The notes beneath the pieces were generated by a model. It was not told the DNA's origin, made no database searches, and saw nothing but the letters and a program-made list of their open reading frames with translations. From NCBI GenBank assembly GCA_951406725.2, contig OX597819.1, forward strand, positions 74,710,001 to 74,774,000: a stretch of 64,000 nt of DNA. Reading direction: 5' to 3'. This document shows positions 2,050 through 63,330 of this stretch, piece after piece; position 1 is the stretch's first letter; each line of letters starts with the position of its first letter. The stretch is from Octopus vulgaris. Taxonomy: Eukaryota. The position numbers and the translations under genes were made by a program.

Positions 2050-2097
2050 AGTATAATACATACATACATACATACATACATACGTATATATATATAT

Positions 2098-2145
<48 letters not shown>

Positions 2146-2228
2146 TATATATATACATTATATATACATATGTATACACACATATACAATATTTTTACAT
2201 ATACATATATATTATACACACACACACG

Positions 2229-2275
<47 letters not shown>

Positions 2276-2450
2276 TAATATATATATACATATATACATA
2301 TGTATACACACATATACAATATATATACATATATATTATACACACAAACACGTATATAATATATATATACACATATATAATATATATGTATATATATAAT
2401 TTACATAAATATAAAATATCTATAATATATGTATATATATAAATATATAA

Positions 2451-2507
<57 letters not shown>

Positions 2508-2590
2508 AATATATATATATATATATAATATATATATAATATATATAAATATAAGTATATATATAAATATAAGTATATATATAAATATAA

Positions 2591-2631
<41 letters not shown>

Positions 2632-2648
2632 TACATACATACACACAC
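2050..2648. repeat. Large compound (TA)n/(TACA)n microsatellite field
   Basis: Directly visible; includes an 18-bp unit ATATATAAATATAAGTAT repeated about 3 times near 2540-2595. Confidence 0.95.
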
Positions 2649-2721
2649 GGCTGAGTGGACATATGAAAGAAAAAGGCACTCAACATATTTCGTAGGAGTT
2701 GTATATATCTAAAACAGTTTC

Positions 2722-2811
2722 ATTCGGTTCCATCCGACTTCAATAATCTGGGCTGAACTAGTTAGGCTTCAGCCTGAAGCCTGCGAAACTTTAAGTCGGA
2801 TGAAGACGAAT
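2722..2811 (+). ncRNA. Fold-back containing a degenerate hammerhead-like core
   Basis: Outer arms ATTCGGTTCCATCCGACTT / AAGTCGGATGAAGACGAAT; inner CTGAACTA-GTT-AGGCTTCAG-C-CTGAAGCCT-GC-GAAACTTTAAGTC. Confidence 0.45.
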
Positions 2812-2814
2812 CTC

Positions 2815-2846
<32 letters not shown>

Positions 2847-2865
2847 TAATAATAATAATAATAAT

Positions 2866-3053
2866 AATTGCTTCAAATTTTGCCACAAAGGCACCCATTT
2901 TGGGGGAGGGGATAAGTCAATTACATCGACTCCAATGTTTCACTGGTACTTATTTTATCGACCCCGAAAGGATGAAAGGCAAAGACGACCTCGGCGGAAT
3001 TTGAACTCAAGACGTAAAAACTGATAAAATGCGACTATGCATTTTGCTCCACG
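2866..3053 (-). mobile_element. SINE family A (tail type 2), 5'-eroded
   Basis: Plus strand TTATCGACCCCGAAAGGATGAAAGGCAAAG..CCTCGGCGGAATTTGAACTC is the reverse complement of the family A core and B box; (AAT)n tail at 2817-2868. Confidence 0.85.
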
Positions 3054-3062
3054 TGATGATAC

Positions 3063-3444
3063 TAATAAGAGCACTCGGAGAGCGCAATCCTCCGGCAAGG
3101 CAACATCAACGTCCTCTCAATGATTAGCCAGAGATGAATTTTAAAATGAGAATATCTGAAATAAACTCGACTGCTCTCAGAAACGAGAATACTAAAAATG
3201 AACCCGACCACTCTGAAAAGTTAAGTAAAAAAAAAAAACACATAAAAAACAAACAAGAATCCTTGTCCAGTACAAGATCGATCCCAAAATTTAATCAGTT
3301 CGTGCCAGTAACGAGGCCAAACATCCCTGAAAGTTTCATCCGAATCTATCCTGAGGTTCTTGAGATATCTTGTCCACGGACAAAGAAACAAACAAACGCG
3401 ACTGAAAACAATACCTCTGCCTCCGCCAAGGAAGAGGTAATAAT
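3063..3444 (+). mobile_element. Non-autonomous Helentron/DINE-1-like element, copy 1
   Basis: Starts AATAAGAGCACTCGGAGAGCGCAATCCTCCGGCAAGG; (CAAA)n near the 3' end; terminal hairpin TACCTCTGCCTCCGCCAAGGAAGAGGTA; homologous to 7264-7596. Confidence 0.6.
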
Positions 3445-3537
3445 CAGGTAATATATATATATATATATATCTATATTGTATAGAGGGCATTATTACACAT
3501 AAATGCCTCACACTAAGAGGGACAAAGTCATTACTAC

Positions 3538-3586
<49 letters not shown>

Positions 3587-3704
3587 CACATTTATTAAAG
3601 AGTGGGAGTTTATCTTCAAAGACTGAGAATTTTGTGTTCACTGCAGAGGAAGCAGAAGAGAGAAAAAACATTTTATTTTACACAGACACACTCATTATAT
3701 ATTT

Positions 3705-3756
<52 letters not shown>

Positions 3757-3757
<1 letters not shown>

Positions 3758-4010
3758 TTTACTTGTTTCAGTTATTAGACTGTGGCCACGCTGGACCACC
3801 GTTCTTGAATTTTTGGGGTCGAATGAATCGACCCCATTACTTTTTTTTTAAACCCGATACGTATTGAATCGGTCTCTTTTTGCCGAACCGCTAATTGATG
3901 GAGATGGAAACAAACCAGCATAGGTTGTCAAGTATCAATGCAGGACACACACAGACACACACACATATATATATATGTACATGACGGGCTTTTTTTTTCC
4001 GTTTCCGTTT
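3757..4010 (-). mobile_element. SINE family B, 3' half
   Basis: CTTTTACTTGTTTCAGTTATTAGACTGTGGCCACGCTGG..GCCGAACCGCTAA. Confidence 0.8.
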
Positions 4011-4305
4011 ATATATCATTTATATCTCTTAGCATTTTTGTGTTGGTCTTTGTCAATGGAATGCTAAAAATAGAACATGAGTACAAGACTAAGGGAAAGT
4101 ATAAGAGATCCAGAAGAGATCTCCAACTCATTCACCCGAAAACGTGCAGGTTCATAGCTGTTGTTGTATCATATTAATGCAATAATGTATATAATATTGT
4201 GAAACACTCAGCAACTACCAGCTGAGGTTAATAATGTACAGAAACAATTGTAATGAGTTTGATTAAAGCCTGTTCATTCCATCTCCTTGTATTATAATTT
4301 GCGTG

Positions 4306-4385
<80 letters not shown>

Positions 4386-4544
4386 ACACCCCGAAGACTT
4401 CTAAACCCAGGAAACTAAACAGCATTCACCCCCCCCCCCACCGACAACCATCAACACAAAAAAAAGTTGTAGTGACGGCATGAACGTCACAGCAACCCTT
4501 CTTTCCCGTTGTAAAAAAAGGAGAGAATATTACTGTTGAAAATG

Positions 4545-4752
4545 AATTGGCGAAGTCAGTGTTGGACATAACACCGAGCAGTATTTAGTTGTGATAGTTA
4601 ATGTTCTTCGTTCGAATCTTACCGAGGCCAACTTTGCCTTCTATTTTTTTAGGGGCAGATAAAATAAAGTGCCATTCAAATACCAGGATTGACAGCATCG
4701 AATAATCCCTTCTCTTCCAAATTTCAGACCCCTTTCGCCTATGTGGAAGTCA
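4545..4752 (+). mobile_element. SINE family A, old degenerate copy
   Basis: GTTCGAATCTTACCGAGGCCAACTTTGCCTT..GATAAAATAAAGTGCCA. Confidence 0.65.
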
Positions 4753-4914
4753 TTTTATAAAAAATCATTTCGCATATTTCTTTTAAGGGGCTTCTTCCCT
4801 ATCCTCAATGGACCATTGGCCACGCACACGCGCGAGTGTGTGTGTGTGTGTGTGTGTGTTTGTGTGTTTGTGCGTGTATGTGCGTGTGTGTGTGTGTGCA
4901 CTGAATATCCTTCC

Positions 4915-6105
4915 TGACATTCCGTGACTATGCATCTCGTTACCAAAATGTATGAAAGCAGCGACAGTGATTGCTTACACAAAACTGACAAACAATGAAT
5001 GTTTATTATAAATGTTGCTGCTGATGATGAACAGGGACAAATGTCTTGATGCTGAGACGAGGCAGACAAACAACAAGGAGTCCGACCTTTGGCACTCAGC
5101 CACGTGTTGCCACACAGACAACAGCTTATTAAATGGACCCCAAGAAGTCTGATACGTATTATCCGTCGACGTATTTTGAACTGAAAATGTCTTGAAAAGT
5201 GCCCGCCACAACATTTGTTGTACCCCAAGCCGAGCCGTGAGGAGTTCTATATCTTCCGGGATACAATCCCTTAAACGTTCAAACACCATTAAAGTAGTCT
5301 CCAGTCTAAGCCCGCATTTTTTTCTGCTGTTTCTGACAGTTTAGGGTACCTCTCCAGTTTCCTTTCTCTCCCTTTTGTTGCAAGAAACTGGTGTTTATGT
5401 GGAGACGACCTCTCGGTTGTCTCAAGCCCTCCTCCTCTTTCGTTGGTCCCTAAGTATTCTCGCAGCGACATCCTGTAGTGCAACACCAACTATGGTTAGT
5501 CCCAGAGGCTTGCTGTTGTGATATCTGACTCTACTGTTGTCTATTGTCCTTTTCCGCTTCTGTTTCCTTTCTTCCCTCAAGTAGCCCTTAGTCCTACACC
5601 TGTAACAATTGGGATTTCTGCCCTGCACTTTTCTCTCTGGGGTGGGGTGGGAGTTCATCAAGATCTGTATGTCTGGGTACAGCTCCTATTCGACTACGTT
5701 GTTTCCTGTCATCTCTGCCTCACCAGCTGCCCCTGCCTTACTGCATAGGTCACGATGAGCCAAACGTTAACATTCATATTAATATCTCAAGTCACAAACC
5801 TCTATGTTTTATCTACTCCTATACTACAGCCCTTAGCTATTTACGTAGTGCCTCCCACATAGACCAGAATCTTCTCTCACTGCTCGTTCCTTGTTTACTC
5901 AGAAACAGAAGCATGTTACTCTCCTCCTTGGGAATTCCTCGGTGAAATCGTTGAGTAAAGAGGTACAGTCTCTTATGACATACTTTTTGTACATTTTTCT
6001 CCTTAGGGAACTGACTCATGTCATTGGTTTCTTTCTGGCTTGCAACGCTTGCAAACGTTTACAATAGTGATGATGCAATCACACAAATGAATCCGTCTGC
6101 TTCCA
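4915..6105 (-). mobile_element. Decayed LTR-retrotransposon-like remnant (gag-like fragments, putative PBS and 3' LTR)
   Basis: Minus strand: TGGAAGCAGA at 6096-6105 (1 mismatch to the tRNA-iMet PBS TGGTAGCAGA) just upstream of ORF MSQFPKE..; knuckle-like NCYRCRTKGYL near 5590-5610; possible LTR TGTATCCCGG (5265)..AATAAA..CGGAATGTCA (4915). Confidence 0.4.
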
Positions 6106-6162
6106 GATAGAGAGAAAGAAATATACTAAAACCAACCCTGGGTTATCATTTACTAAGAATTT

Positions 6163-6372
6163 AAGGCGGCGAGCTAGCAGAATCGTTGGCATGCTGGGCA
6201 AAATGCCTAGCGGCATTTCGTCCGTCTTTACGTTCAAATTTTGCCATGGTCGGCTTTACCTTTCGTCTTTACGAGGGTCGATAAAATAAGGACCACTTGA
6301 ACACTGGAGGCGATGTAATCCTCTTACCCGCCTCCCCCGAAATTGCTGGCTTTGTGCCTTGAAACCATTATT
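6163..6372 (+). mobile_element. SINE family A (tail type 2)
   Basis: AAGGCGGCGAGCTAGCAGAATCGTTGGC..GTTCAAATT..GGGTCGATAAAATAAG. Confidence 0.85.
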
Positions 6373-7069
6373 TACGAAGGATTATATCCACGAAAACTTA
6401 TTTATAAATGTAACATTTCTGATTGCCATTTCAGTTTCACATTCAGTGTCATAAACAGAAAATACAGCCAACTTTCGAAGAACACGCATCCGAAAATTAG
6501 TGTAATCAAGTGCACTTGTACTAAAGTTGTTGTGGAATCCTGACTGAATACTGCACAATGATGGTTCTTAATTATTTAGATTCATAAAAGTGTTTGTGTG
6601 TGCTTTATTAAATCGACCATGAAACTTGTGTCGTTCAAGTTTGCATCGTCACTACACACAGTCTGTGATGTCAACCGGTCTGATTTACAAACACAAAGTG
6701 ATAAATATGGCGGTAGTGACACGACAAATAAATGTTTTCTTTTTTTGTTTTGTTTTTTTGTAATATAGATATTTGCTCTTAAATGTTGTCTCTTGACCGA
6801 ATTTATCGTTTTCAGTTTATGGGAAATACAACAGAGATGACTCGTAATATCAGCTTTATCTTCTTCAGCACACAGAACCGAATAACAACAACGACAACAA
6901 TGCGCTGAGGTTGTTATCAGCGAAGGATACAAAATCTGAACAAGATTGCAGAGATGGCTAAATAAAATAAAATAAAATAAAATAAAATAGAATCGTAAAT
7001 AAACGAGTCAGATAAGAAGGGAAACAGTATTAGCAGTATTATAATGATGATGATGATGATTTCTATTAT

Positions 7070-16304: not shown

Positions 16305-16655
16305 TAGCACTCCGTCGGTTGCGACGACGAGGGTTCCAGTTGATCCGATCAACGGAACAGCCTGCTCATGAAATTAACGTGCAAATGGCTCAGCACTCCA
16401 CAGACACGTGAACCCTTAACGTAGTTCTCGGGGAGATTCAGCGTGACACAGAGTGTGACAAGGCTGGCCCCTTTGAAATACAGGTACAACAGAAACAGGA
16501 AGAAAGAGTGAGAGAAAGCTGCGGCGAAAGAATACAGCAGGGTTCGCCACCACCCCCTGCCGGAGCCTCGTGGAGCGTTAGGTGTTTTCGCTGAATAAAC
16601 ACTCACAATGCCTGGTCTGGGAATCGAAACTGCGAGTCCGCTGCCCTAACCACTG
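16305..16655 (-). mobile_element. SINE with the family C tail but a different tRNA head/central domain (C2)
   Basis: Minus head CAGTGGTTAGGGCAGCGGACTCGCAGTTTCGATTCCCAG, centre GCTCCACGAGGCTCCGGCAGGGGGTGGTGGCGAACCCTGCTG, then the family C tail. Confidence 0.85.
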
Positions 16656-17564: not shown

Positions 17565-17569
<5 letters not shown>

Positions 17570-17720
17570 ATCCAAATATGAACAAAGAGAAAACACAACT
17601 ACGCGAAGACGTGGAATAAGTAAGTGTTATTGGACACTCTTCGTCAGAAACATAAAGAAAGTCCAAAGAAGGGAAGACAGAGAAAGAAAATCGCCAACGA
17701 TACACACGCGGTCACATACA
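17565..17720 (-). mobile_element. Family D TA-associated element, copy with the hammerhead partly deleted
   Basis: Minus strand ..GTTTCTGACGAAGAG^TGTCCAATAAC..TTTGGATTAACTATA; colinear with 40212-40375 and 55215-55395; (TA)n on both sides. Confidence 0.7.
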
Positions 17721-17726
17721 TCATAC

Positions 17727-17777
<51 letters not shown>

Positions 17778-18126: not shown

Positions 18127-18413
18127 TGCAGTTGGTTTTGAACGTGAAACTTTTCCCTTTGAAGAAGAGTTTCCATCCCTGAGAACGATGTGGTTATAGA
18201 ATCTGTGTACTAAAGTTTTAGTGGCTAGGGTATTCGGCTCACAATCGAAGGGTCGCGAGTTCGATTCCCGGTGGCGCGCTGTATCCTTGTGCAAGACACT
18301 TTATTTCACGTTGCTCCAGTCCACTCAGCTGGCAAAAATGAGTTGTACCTGTAATTCACAAGAGGCTAGCCTTGTCATATTCTGTATGTCATGCTGAATC
18401 TCCCCGAGAACTA

Positions 18414-35391: not shown

Positions 35392-36400
35392 TTTGATACT
35401 TTGATAGGTTTCGGCCATTATTGGCCCAGGCCATGTCTAACTTAATAGCACCACCTGGTGAAGTCTTTCAAGTCAGAATTTGGGCACTATGGCCCACTCA
35501 AGTAGAGAGTTATTGTTTACAGAGACATATCCGGGTGTAGGGGGTTTATCCGGGATTTCTTGAAGGAATCTGTCCAAAGACTTCTTGAACCCTATAGGGT
35601 CAGTTTCTGTTTTAATGTGTTTTGGTGTAATGTTAAAGAGAGCGGGGCCAATTGAGGTGAAATAATTGTGCCGTATTGTTGTTATGAGATGAGAGTGCGA
35701 TTTTTGTTTTGGGCGGATGGCACGGGGCCCAAGCCTTGGATGTACCTTAAAGGTGATGCCAACATCATTTGGGCAATGCTGATGGAATATTTTCCACATC
35801 ATGCAGATGATGTAGCGCTCACGACGACGTTGGAGAGAATAGAGTTTTAGCTTTTCTAGTCGACCCCAATAGTCGAGGCCTGTCATGCCATCTATCTTTT
35901 TTTGTGATTGCCCTTTGAGGTGCTTCGACTTTTATGATACCTTGTATTGTGTGGGGAGACCACAGTGGACAACAGTATTCAAGGTGGGGTCGGGCAAAAG
36001 TGGAGAAGAGAAGGATAATGGTGTGGATATCTCTCGACTGGAAAGTTCTGAGAATCCAGGAACACATTCTGCGGGCCATGTCAACTTTGGTGTTTATATG
36101 AGTGGCCCAGCTTACGTTGTTGTCCACAATTACTCCCAAGTCTCTGATGTTGTTGGACGCCGTGAGAGTTTCACCTGAAGGAAGGGAGTATGGGAGTTTC
36201 AGGGCATCCTCTTTTCCAAAGTGGATTAGCTCAAATTTATCCTCGTTCAGCAGCATATTGTTTTTTTCTGCCCATTGGATAACAGCCAGTAGATCTGACT
36301 GAAGGCATGTCCGGTCACTCGCCTCATTTATGACCTTCTGTAGCTTGGAGTCATCTGCAAAGATTTTTATGTTGCTGTGCTTGATGATGTCATTAATATA
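35391..36400 (-). mobile_element. 5'-truncated CR1-type LINE (RT C-terminal half, ORF end and 3' UTR) embedded in (TA)n
   Basis: YINDIIKHSNIKIFADD..RDLGVIVD..RPHLEYCCPLWSP..QRAITKK/ frameshift /..YWGRLEKLKLYSLQRRRERY..; 3' end GGCCGAAACCTATCAAAGTATCAAAG; (TA)n on both flanks. Confidence 0.92.
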
Positions 36401-36496: not shown

Positions 36497-36499
<3 letters not shown>

Positions 36500-36730
36500 G
36501 CGGCGAATTGGTTGAAACGTTAGCACGCCGGGCGAAATGCGTAGCCGTATTTCATCTGCCGTTACGTTCTGAGTTCAAATTCCGCCGAGGTCTACTTTGC
36601 CTTTCATCCTTTCGGGGTCGATAAATTAAGTACCAGTTACGCTCTGGGGTCGATGTAATCGACTTAATCCGTTTGTCTGTCCTTGTTTGCCCCCTCTGTG
36701 TTTAGCCCCTTTGTGGGGAGTAAAGAAATA
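36497..36730 (+). mobile_element. SINE family A, tail type 1, inside (TA)n
   Basis: AAGGCGGCGAATTGGTTGAAACGTTAGCACG..TTAGCCCCTTTGTGGGGAGTAAAGAAATA(TA)n. Confidence 0.92.
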
Positions 36731-40211: not shown

Positions 40212-40375
40212 AGTAAATCCCCAAAAATGAAGAACAAACACAAAAAACAACAACAATACAAGGACGTGGTACATGTAAAGTATTAGCAGACGCTCAGGGA
40301 AGGAAAGAAAGGTGGTCTTACGTTTCGAGTAAAGCGCTTCTTCAGAAACAGAGAAAAGAAAGAAAGAAAGATAGA
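40212..40375 (-). mobile_element. Family D TA-associated element with a minimal hammerhead (40315-40349)
   Basis: Minus strand GTTT-CTGAAGA-A-GCGC-TTT-ACTC-GAAAC-GTA-AGAC; 3' end abuts (TA)n. Confidence 0.7.
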
Positions 40376-54838: not shown

Positions 54839-55215
54839 GTAGTATATATGTATGTATACATATATATATATATATTATATGTGTAGTATATATGTATGTA
54901 TACATATATATATATATATATATGTGTAGTATATATGTATGTATACATATATATTATATGTGTAGTATATATGTATGTATACATATATATATATTATATG
55001 TGTAGTATATATATATGTATACATATATATTATATGTGTAGTATATATGTATGTATACATACATATATATATATATTATATGTGTAGTATATATGAATGT
55101 ATACATATATATATTATATGTGTAGTATATATGTATGTATACATATATATATATATTATATGTGTAGTATATATGTATGTATACATATATATATTATGTG
55201 TAGTATATATGTATG
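54803..55215. repeat. TA-derived minisatellite, core TTATATGTGTAGTATATATGTATGTATACATATA, about 10 units
   Basis: Directly visible. Confidence 0.92.
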
Positions 55216-55395
55216 TCGATTTCTTTCCCCTGTCCTCCCTTCTCGGGATCTTTCCTTCTCCTATGTTTCCGACGAAGAGCTCCGCTCGAAACGTCAAACC
55301 CTCCTTCTTCCCTTAGCGTCCAATAATACCTTATTTGTTCTACGTCCTTGCGTTGTTGCTTTTTTGATTTTGGTTTCTTGTTTGGATTAACTAAC
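55215..55395 (+). mobile_element. Family D TA-associated element with a minimal hammerhead (55265-55299)
   Basis: GTTT-CCGACGA-A-GAGC-TCC-GCTC-GAAAC-GTC-AAAC; ends TTTGGATTAACTA. Confidence 0.75.
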
Positions 55396-55400
55396 TATAC

Positions 55401-55441
<41 letters not shown>

Positions 55442-55445
55442 ATGT

Positions 55446-55500
55446 AGGTGGTGCTATTAAGTTAGACATGGCCTGCGCCTATACTGGCAGAAATCTATCA

Positions 55501-56703: not shown

Positions 56704-57431
56704 CAGAAAGGATATAGAAAAGGTGAGAGTGACAGAGTATAACTGATGGAGATGGTGAGAGTCAAATAGTTAGGTAGTGGAAGAGAGAAAATAGACAGAA
56801 ATATGAGAGAAAGGGTGTAAGAGATGAAGAAACAGAGTAAAGACGAAAAAGAGAGAGAAGAGTAGATAAAAGAGTCAGAGAGAATAGGGGAGAAAAAGAA
56901 AGAAAGAAGAAAGCGAAAAGCCATGTAGTTAAAGCAAGATTTGAGCAAGGTAGATTTGAAGTGAATACGGACGGACGGACGGATAACAGCTATTAAGTAG
57001 AGTTATCTATTGCTGAATCATCCTTTAATTATTGACTTGGCAGTTGTTGTTCTTATATTATCGCTTGGTTGAGGTGTCAGACGACACTCTACCCACGACG
57101 ACGATGGCGGCGGCTTCTTCATATTGGAACCAAAAATAATAAAACGACAGTGAGGAGATGGAGGGGAAATGGAGGACGGAGGAGAGACGAAGACGGGCAG
57201 GAAAGAGTACAAATAAACTTGGTTTCTGTTTTCTTTTTCCTCCCTTATCATACGTGGTCCAACTGTAGTTTGTGATTACGAGTAAATTCAAGGACCCAGT
57301 ATCTAGTAGCCCAGCAATATTGGTAAAAGGAACCGCAGTTTCAGATTTCTGGTGGTGGAGTTAGGCGATCTTTAAGTTTAGGGCATCGTTTTCACGTTCG
57401 TTAATGGCTCAATGATAAAACTGAAAGAAAT

Positions 57432-57825
57432 GGGATCTTTTCGGTTTGAACGGCAGTTTTTTCTAGCGGTGTCATATGAAATTGTCACCCATAATTATGA
57501 CCCTAGAATCGTTCTATTGCATTTCAATCTCTTTTAGGGTTAGGGAAAGGGTATCTTTTTTTCTTCACAAATGTAAATAAACCCAGTCTGTTTCTTAAAC
57601 GAGGGACATATTCATACGGCACAGAATGCTTTTTAACTGATTGGTTGAAATTGCAGAAATTGAAGAAGAAAAAAAACAACAAATATCTTACAAACTATAG
57701 AATTTTCTCATAAAGCCAAGAGAAAAAGATGTTTTATAAACACATTCTACCAGTATACGAAGTTTAAAATTTTTTAGTTACCTAGAAATTATGTTAAAAA
57801 CTGCCATTCAAACCGAAAAGATCCA
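57432..57825. mobile_element. MITE with ~30-bp TIRs and 6-bp TSD, copy 2 (inverted relative to 14644-15053)
   Basis: GGGATCTTTTCGGTTTGAACGGCAGTTTTT ... AAAAACTGCCATTCAAACCGAAAAGATCCA; TSD AGAAAT at 57426-31 and 57826-31. Confidence 0.9.
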
Positions 57826-58769: not shown

Positions 58770-59200
58770 CAACACGTTGTCTCCTTCAGCAAGACACTTT
58801 ATTTCACGTTGCTCCAGTCCACTCATTTGCAAAAGTGAGCAGTAATTCAAAGGGCCAGCCTTATCATATTTCTGTGTCACGCTGAATCTCCCCGAGAACC
58901 ATGCTAAGGGTACACGTGTCTGGAGTAATCAGCCACTTCCACGTTAATTTCACTAACAGGCTGTTCCGTTCATCGGATCAGCTGGAACACTCGTCATCGT
59001 AACCAACGGAGTGCCATTAATATATATATATGTATATATATATACACACATACGACGGGCTTCTTTTCAGTTTCCATCTACCAAATCCACTTACAAGGCT
59101 TTGGTTGGCCCGAGGCTATATAAGAAGACACTTGCCCAAGGTGCCACGCAGTGGGACTAAACCCGGAATCATGTGGTCGGGAAGCAATTTTCTTACCACG

Positions 59201-63130: not shown

Positions 63131-63330
63131 TGACACTCCGTCTGTTACGATGACGACGGTCCCACTTGATCCGATCAACGGAACAGCCTGCTCATAAAAA
63201 TCAACGCGCAAGTGGCTGAGTACTCCATAGATATGTGTACCCTTAACGTAGTCCTCGGGGAGATTCAGCGTGACACAGAATGTGACAAAGCTGACCCTTT
63301 GAATTACAGGTATAACTCATTTTTTGCCAA
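63131..63330 (-). mobile_element. SINE C, 3' part
   Basis: CACTCCGTCTGTTACGATGACG..TTGATCCGATCAACGGAACAGCCTGCTC..GAATTACAGGTATAACTCATTTTTTGCC. Confidence 0.85.

What the first reader, a model, noticed from the sequence alone, without database searches (positions are those of the whole stretch)
55215..55395. Short non-coding repeat family (D) carrying a minimal hammerhead ribozyme and sitting in TA-rich microsatellites
Seen: three colinear copies of about 160-180 bp (17565-17720 -, 40212-40375 -, 55215-55395 +). All end TTTG(G)ATT(A)ACTA against (TA)n or related tracts and have no ORF, tRNA head or TIR. 55265-55299 folds as a type I hammerhead: stem I GTTT/AAAC, core CCGACGA (CTGAAGA in the 40315-40349 copy, CTGACGA in the 17640 copy), an extra A, stem II GAGC-TCC-GCTC, GAAAC, then GTC. 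In the 40k copy stem I is kept as GTTT/AGAC and the triplet is GTA, i.e. changes compatible with the structure. Stem III is only the loopless palindrome AC/GT. Established: minimal hammerheads with palindromic stem III occur in Penelope-like element (PLE) pLTRs and retrozymes and are reported to cleave as dimers. Inference: this is a non-autonomous retrozyme/PLE-derived family that targets TA microsatellites; each copy here carries some decay, so activity would belong to the consensus.
Basis: partly seen in the sequence, partly recalled or inferred. Interest (0 to 1): 0.8.

Follow-up and report, generated by a model that had tools for sequence, protein, structure and literature searches.

The report
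Penelope-like retroelement ends with minimal hammerheads
This is a very abundant short repeat whose self-cutting-RNA (hammerhead) motif matches an already described type, and it is most likely the leftover tail end of a Penelope-like jumping gene, which is ordinary in animal genomes; the one oddity is that a large share of the copies carry a core change that would likely weaken the ribozyme.

Summary
The three copies are real (blastn E 2e-16 and 8e-10; 76-81% identical). The motif at 55265-55299 fits a minimal type I hammerhead descriptor that hit 0 times in 300 shuffles. It matches the published consensus for hammerheads of Penelope-like elements (PLEs) at every position except U4. Contigs from 4 public runs (17,079 laid) show a high-copy family with a shared 3' end against TA tracts, sequence continuing 5' of this copy, and almost no tandem joints. 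This fits 5'-truncated or solo pseudo-LTR ends of a TA-inserting PLE (0.6) better than a dedicated non-autonomous unit (0.3). It is not a classical retrozyme. The coding partner was not found.

The CCGACGA core is not decay of this copy: C holds about 68-77% of laid depth. The family triplet is often GUU. This is a new member of a known kind. The amplified U4C variant is the only lead worth a bench test.

The parts
55215..55393 (+). Copy 1 of the repeat (likely pLTR-type 3' end of a PLE); 5'-truncated by at least 22 nt relative to other copies
   Evidence: loose ends before 55217 match the upstream part of the 17k copy
55265..55299 (+). Minimal type I hammerhead motif: stem I 55265-68/55296-99, core 55269-75 (C at position 4, 55270), extra A 55276, stem II 55277-87, GAAA 55288-91
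   Evidence: descriptor hit, 0 in 300 shuffles; matches Fig. S3 consensus of PMC4209133 except U4
55291..55295 (+). Loopless palindromic helix III (ACGT) and N17; predicted cleavage after 55295, 98 nt from the 3' end; N17 is T in 46-94% of laid depth
54803..55214 (.). TA-derived microsatellite/minisatellite array on the 5' side of copy 1
55394..55440 (.). Degenerate TA then (TG)n tract on the 3' side of copy 1, after a repeated ACTA
40212..40375 (-). Copy 2; ends directly in (TA)n; its upstream ~45 nt are not detectably homologous to copy 3
40315..40349 (-). Hammerhead motif of copy 2: canonical CTGAAGA core, GTA triplet, stem I with one wobble, stem II with 2 of 4 pairs broken
17565..17716 (-). 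Copy 3; longest 5' end; (TA)n on both sides; 42-nt deletion removes the 3' half of the ribozyme
17641..17651 (-). Stem I 5' strand and CTGACGA half-core left in copy 3

Best explanation
The three copies are most likely the pseudo-LTR (3' terminal) segment of a high-copy Penelope-like retroelement, left as 5'-truncated or solo ends after inferred target-primed reverse transcription into TA-rich DNA, and the segment carries a minimal type I hammerhead motif. Shown: the family, its abundance, the motif, the shared 3' end about 100 nt past the predicted cleavage site, different 5' ends, monomeric layout, TA flanks. Inferred from known PLE biology: an RT plus GIY-YIG protein (Neptune-type is the best guess, from TA bias plus a hammerhead) binds the element RNA, nicks AT-rich DNA and starts cDNA synthesis at a fixed site downstream of the hammerhead, so most insertions are short 3' pieces. 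In tandem transcripts two motifs would pair through the ACGU palindrome and cut after GUH, slowly and probably with protein help. The single copies here are predicted to be inactive as monomers.
For: The motif matches the published min-HHR consensus (U-rich leader, CUGANGAH, G10.1-C11.1, GAAAN, palindrome, UH) except U4, and CGUC, CGUU and CGUA endings all occur among its 56 examples, 30 of 40 species tied to PLEs. That paper says most motifs are single and probably from truncated PLEs. Chance excluded: 0 in 300 shuffles. 2,079-6,436 contigs per run laid in 4 of 4 runs. Several long pieces stop at 55392-55393, and loose ends continue 5' of 55217. In Poseidon of Anolis, reverse transcription starts 111-118 nt into the ORF with the cut at 26, about 90 nt past the cut, on AT-rich targets; here the distance is 98 and 107 nt. 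Microsatellite bias is reported for Neptune and Naiad PLEs.
Against: No RT or GIY-YIG sequence was linked to the family: none in the window, no genome held, 0 hits in 6 of 6 collection scans. All 3 copies are under 210 nt with no ORF remnant. The TA-to-TA span is about 204-206 nt in copies 2 and 3 once the deletion is counted (my arithmetic), which would suit a fixed-length unit. No two-sided covariation, and no variant of 5% or more in either stem or in loop II. U4 is C in most of the laid depth. The clade is a guess.
Confidence: 0.6

Rival explanations
1. A dedicated non-autonomous unit of about 200 nt, derived from a pLTR and mobilised in trans by a PLE protein.
For: 3 of 3 copies are short and ORF-free. 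TGT(G/C)AC starts 65 nt upstream of stem I in both copy 2 and copy 3. The three loose-end consensuses agree over TGTGACC but differ upstream of it. Non-autonomous pLTR-like derivatives are described for Chlamys PLEs and argued for animal retrozymes.
Against: The upstream parts of copies 2 and 3 do not align better than shuffles (1616 of 2000 as good for the 5' part, 191 of 2000 for the whole). Copy 1 is 5'-truncated. Most PLE insertions are 5'-truncated with a single terminal repeat anyway.
Confidence: 0.3
2. A classical non-LTR retrozyme: tandem 150-400 nt units that self-cleave into circular RNAs.
For: Unit size is in range and monomer derivatives of retrozymes exist. One contig in run X13 shows a back-joint 55339 to 55249.
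Against: 0 of 3 copies are in tandem. 1 back-joint contig among 17,079. Depth 7-14 nt past the 3' end stays at 63-77% of the depth just inside it, so most contigs holding the tip run into TA-like letters, not into a next unit (biased by the TA flank in the reference). Minimal motifs are assigned to PLEs and canonical ones to retrozymes.
Confidence: 0.05
3. An ordinary LINE 3' UTR or SINE tail whose hammerhead look is coincidence.
For: No Rfam match; no covariation; the fold is not the minimum-energy one; LINE-type 3' ends at 35402 and 55500 also run into (TA)n.
Against: 0 hits in 300 shuffles; the features outside the core (extra nucleotide after A9, G10.1-C11.1, palindrome, U-rich leader) all match PLE min-HHRs; no match to the LINE or SINE families of the window.
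Confidence: 0.04

Closest known systems
Minimal hammerheads (min-HHR) of metazoan Penelope-like elements (Cervera and De la Pena 2014, PMC4209133)
   Same: Type I topology, 4-bp helix I, extra nucleotide after A9, G10.1-C11.1, loopless palindromic CG, UH triplet, U-rich leader, mostly single dispersed motifs.
   Different: Position 4 is C in copy 1 and in most of the laid depth; all 56 examples in Fig. S3 have U4, though that search required the canonical core. Stem II is short (4 bp, 3-nt loop). No cephalopod example is in that figure. The link to an ORF is not shown here.
Neptune-clade (and Penelope/Poseidon) EN+ PLEs (Craig et al. 2021, PMC8557442; Frangieh et al. 2024, PMC11167929)
   Same: Hammerhead near the 3' end, fixed end about 90-110 nt downstream of the cut site, AT-rich or microsatellite targets, no clear target-site duplication.
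   Different: No protein evidence. In Anolis Poseidon the segment downstream of the hammerhead is the ORF start and priming is in an AC-rich stem-loop; here it is T-rich with no Pfam match.
Non-LTR retrozymes of animals (Cervera and de la Pena 2020, PMC7229834; Li, Clavereau and Pollet 2026 preprint)
   Same: Short, non-coding, type I hammerhead, PLE-related.
   Different: Retrozymes are tandem arrays, mostly with canonical hammerheads; these copies are monomers with a minimal motif and a fixed end on TA.
Naiad PLEs of Octopus (Naiad_Obim, Naiad_Ovul in PMC8557442 supplement)
   Same: (TA)n insertion preference.
   Different: Naiads lack canonical hammerheads; 4 of 4 short family motifs were absent from the supplement's sequences (exact match only, line breaks can hide hits).

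Membership tests
PLE minimal hammerhead (min-HHR) | Core CUGANGA ... GAAA, UH | tested here: inconclusive
   Met in copy 2 and half-met in copy 3; copy 1 has U4C. T share at 55270 is 32/26/26/23% of depth in 4 runs, so both alleles are family-level.
PLE minimal hammerhead (min-HHR) | Nucleotide between A9 and 10.1; G10.1-C11.1 | tested here: met
PLE minimal hammerhead (min-HHR) | Palindromic 15.2-16.2, no loop III; helix I of 2-5 bp | tested here: met
   C-G, 4-bp helix I in 2 of 2 complete motifs
PLE minimal hammerhead (min-HHR) | Covariation across the family | tested here: inconclusive
   0 two-sided changes in 2 sequences; no variant of 5% or more in stems or loop II among laid contigs; single copies were not available for alignment
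PLE minimal hammerhead (min-HHR) | Self-cleavage as a dimer or with protein | not testable with these tools
   contigs cannot show RNA ends
EN+ Penelope-like element | RT plus GIY-YIG ORF between pLTRs | tested here: inconclusive
   none in the window; no genome held; 6 collection scans empty
EN+ Penelope-like element | Fixed 3' end downstream of the hammerhead, variable 5' truncation | tested here: met
   3 copies share the 3' end and differ at the 5' end; loose ends continue upstream; n is small
EN+ Penelope-like element | AT-rich or (TA)n target bias | tested here: met
   2 of 3 strict against 295 of 72,821 background, third in degenerate TA/TG; other repeats of the window share the trait
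EN+ Penelope-like element | Partial tandems, inverted 5' pieces, optional 30-40 bp tail | tested here: not met
   none of these in 3 of 3 copies; they are optional for truncated copies
Non-LTR retrozyme | At least two head-to-tail units, each with a hammerhead | tested here: not met
   0 of 3 copies; 1 back-joint contig of 17,079
Non-LTR retrozyme | Canonical hammerhead with loop 1-loop 2 contacts | tested here: not met
   minimal motif; no Rfam hammerhead match
Non-LTR retrozyme | Circular RNA of unit length | not testable with these tools
   no raw RNA reads among the 24 runs listed
Naiad PLE | No canonical hammerhead; similarity to Naiad consensus | tested here: not met
   full motif present; 0 of 4 motifs found in the supplement

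The most novel reading that the evidence does not exclude
A subfamily whose hammerhead carries U4C, a core change reported to cut activity sharply in vitro, amplified to thousands of copies and may outnumber the canonical subfamily. Either ribozyme cleavage is dispensable for PLE spread in a real genome, or U4C minimal hammerheads stay active with protein help and form a class that canonical-core searches cannot see.
Probability: 0.3. Interest if true: 0.5.

Novelty: new member of a known kind. Interest (0 to 1): 0.24.

Why it matters
As a family it adds one more lineage to a described pattern. The role of the hammerhead in PLE transposition is still open: catalytic mutants did not affect insertion in vitro (PMC11167929), and Craig et al. 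suggest hammerheads may simply ride on PLEs. A high-copy family with both U4 and C4 subfamilies is a natural pair for testing that question.

Tried and rejected
Whole-genome copy collection: no genome held. Rfam: 0 matches at gathering level over the window; 13 weak matches around copy 1, none a hammerhead. Pattern scans for relatives: viral contigs 0 in 3 scans, metagenome contigs 0 in 2 (the first pattern left out the GTT triplet), prokaryote genomes 0 in 1. Pfam on 194 of 490 ORFs: only a sub-cutoff DDE_3 hit and three other weak hits. Match to Octopus Naiads: none. Homology of the 40k upstream segment to the family: not significant; its weak match to another repeat (E 0.32) was not pursued. 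Depth was not used as a copy number. Other core-like strings at 4391, 35214 and 58976 fail the descriptor. Lunse et al. 2017 was not held. PMC12602865 had nothing on pLTRs or hammerheads. Earlier scan notes: nothing by sequence or place.

Full report
OBSERVATION. With 55215-55400 as query, blastn finds 40367-40205 (E 2e-16) and 17638-17558 plus 17689-17637 (E 8e-10, 1e-06), and nhmmer finds these 3 loci and no other. Downstream of the ribozyme the copies are 76-81% identical. They share a 3' end and have different 5' ends. ARAGORN finds one tRNA-like gene in the window, at 18205-18280, outside the family. The only inverted repeats around the copies are the TA flanks.

THE MOTIF. 55265-55299 reads stem I GTTT, core CCGACGA, A, stem II GAGC-TCC-GCTC, GAAA, C, G, T, C, stem I' AAAC. 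My descriptor (4-bp stem I, C[C/T]GAnGA, optional extra base, stem II of 4-8 bp closed by G-C, GAAA, palindromic pair, TH) gives this one strict hit; with two stem II mismatches it adds the 40k copy; 300 dinucleotide shuffles gave 0 hits under either setting. I wrote the descriptor after seeing the motif, but it follows the published one apart from allowing C4. In the 40k copy stem I keeps 4 of 4 pairs with one wobble, while stem II keeps 2 of 4; no pair changes on both sides. The 17k copy lacks 42 nt after CTGACGAAG, so it has no ribozyme. Nearest-neighbour energies do not favour the hammerhead: monomer -3.8 against -8.8 kcal/mol, dimer -5.9 against -22.5. Rfam has no match.

THE FAMILY OUTSIDE THE WINDOW. 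No genome is held, and 6 of 6 pattern scans of viral, metagenome and prokaryote collections were empty. Public runs hold the sequence: 24 runs were listed and I laid 4 of them at 80% likeness. 6,436, 6,299, 2,079 and 2,265 contigs were laid, 17,079 in all, under three organism labels. Summed depth is not a copy number, but thousands of distinct contigs, and 3 copies in 64 kb, show a high-copy family. Four results matter. (1) Loose ends before 55217 match the upstream part of the 17k copy, so the 55k copy is 5'-truncated. (2) Five of the 32 pieces shown stop at 55392-55393, and depth 7-14 nt beyond the end is 63-77% of the depth just inside it; the TA flank in my reference favours such contigs. 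(3) One contig shows a back-joint (55339 to 55249); none joins the 3' end to an earlier part. A junction upstream of my reference would be missed. (4) At 55270, core position 4, T holds 32, 26, 26 and 23% of depth, against 2-8% for the decay allele at three other CpG sites. C is therefore a family-level allele, although laying on a C-bearing reference inflates its share. At 55295 T holds 46, 80, 92 and 94%, so the triplet is often GUU. No stem position, and no loop II position, varies at 5% or more, which gives no evidence for or against covariation.

TA FLANKS. 295 of 72,821 non-simple positions are followed by (TA)4 within 6 nt. Copies 2 and 3 meet this by inspection; copy 1 does not, but lies between a 410-bp TA-derived array and a TA/TG tract. 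The trait is not unique: two full copies of another short repeat have (TA)n on both sides, and LINE-type 3' ends at 35402 and 55500 run into (TA)n. Insertion into TA and growth of TA afterwards cannot be separated here.

COMPARISON WITH WHAT IS KNOWN. Cervera and De la Pena 2014 (PMC4209133; parts 1-2 of 4 of the text and parts 1-2 of 3 of supplement 2 read; supplement 1 not available) define min-HHRs by an extra base after A9, G10.1-C11.1, a palindromic 15.2-16.2 and a short helix I. They report thousands per genome, mostly single and probably from truncated PLEs, with no activity as monomers and low activity as dimers. This motif matches their consensus except at U4. All 56 examples of Fig. 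S3 have U4, but their descriptor required the canonical core. CGUU and CGUC endings are both common there, so GUU is ordinary. Frangieh et al. 2024 (PMC11167929; parts 1-2 of 4) show nicking of AT-rich DNA, priming about 90 nt past the cut site, a protein-assisted ribozyme, and no effect of ribozyme mutants on insertion in vitro. Here the distance is 98 and 107 nt. Craig et al. 2021 (PMC8557442; passages, introduction and supplement searches) tie microsatellite bias to Neptune and Naiad PLEs; Naiads lack canonical hammerheads and do not hold 4 family motifs. Retrozymes are tandem units (PMC7229834, passages; preprint 10.64898/2026.07.22.740005, parts 1-3 of 5; its supplements are closed). Perreault et al. 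2011 (PMC3088659, passages) state that U4C considerably lowers activity in vitro yet allows viroid infectivity. Lunse et al. 2017 was not held; I saw only a review's account of it (PMC6765202, passages), and it may list U4 variants.

HOST. The neighbouring short repeats look like octopus SINEs to me; this is recalled and untested. If right, PLEs cover 6.83% of the Octopus vulgaris genome in 190 families (PMC13282606, passages and supplement rows), so this family may already sit in that library or in Repbase, which I could not search. Searches for octopus plus hammerhead ribozyme, and for U4C-type cores, listed no paper describing this family or a U4C hammerhead in a PLE; these were judged from listings.

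MECHANISM. Shown: family, motif, abundance, end structure, flanks. Inferred: PLE protein nicks TA-rich DNA and primes on a site about 100 nt past the hammerhead; short cDNAs integrate as solo ends; tandem transcripts could form dimeric ribozymes through ACGU. Not shown: the coding partner, the clade, transcription, cleavage. I put truncated or solo PLE ends at 0.6, a dedicated non-autonomous unit at 0.3, a classical retrozyme at 0.05 and coincidence at 0.04.

VERDICT. Real, well above chance, and a new member of a known kind. Interest 0.24. The amplified U4C allele is the one part that a specialist might want to test.

Noticed in passing
window:33917-34154 and 36497-36730: Two full 235-bp copies (93% identical) of another short repeat, each with (TA)n on both sides; many partial copies elsewhere.
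   Followed up: partly
window:35402-36409 (-) and 55446-55500 (+): Frameshifted LINE reverse-transcriptase remnant (CR1/L2-like by recalled motifs; no Pfam hit) whose 3' end recurs 50 nt downstream of copy 1; both run into (TA)n.
   Followed up: partly
window:40113-40190: About 76-bp imperfect inverted repeat (MITE-like) directly beyond the TA tract of copy 2.
   Followed up: no
window:18205-18280: tRNA-Val-like gene call next to a copy of a repeat family also at 339-589, 16307-16481, 58773-59016 and 63131-63307; likely a tRNA-related SINE part.
   Followed up: no
window:18532-19011 (-): Transposase remnant, weak DDE_3 match below cutoff.
   Followed up: no
window:16848-17312 (-): ORF remnant resembling the C-terminus of an RTE-type LINE protein (recalled motif; no Pfam hit), 250 nt beyond copy 3.
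   Followed up: no
window:14645-15057 and 57428-57824: Two copies (88-89% identical) of a 410-bp repeat whose ends look like inverted repeats.
   Followed up: no
window:55262-55317 (+): An ATG just 5' of stem I opens a short frame through the hammerhead that stops after 18 codons in copy 1 (read by eye); in Anolis Poseidon the ORF also starts at the hammerhead.
   Followed up: no
window:40212-40418 and 17566-17727: TA-to-TA spans of copies 2 and 3 are about 206 and 204 nt once the 42-nt deletion is counted, though their 5' parts do not align.
   Followed up: partly
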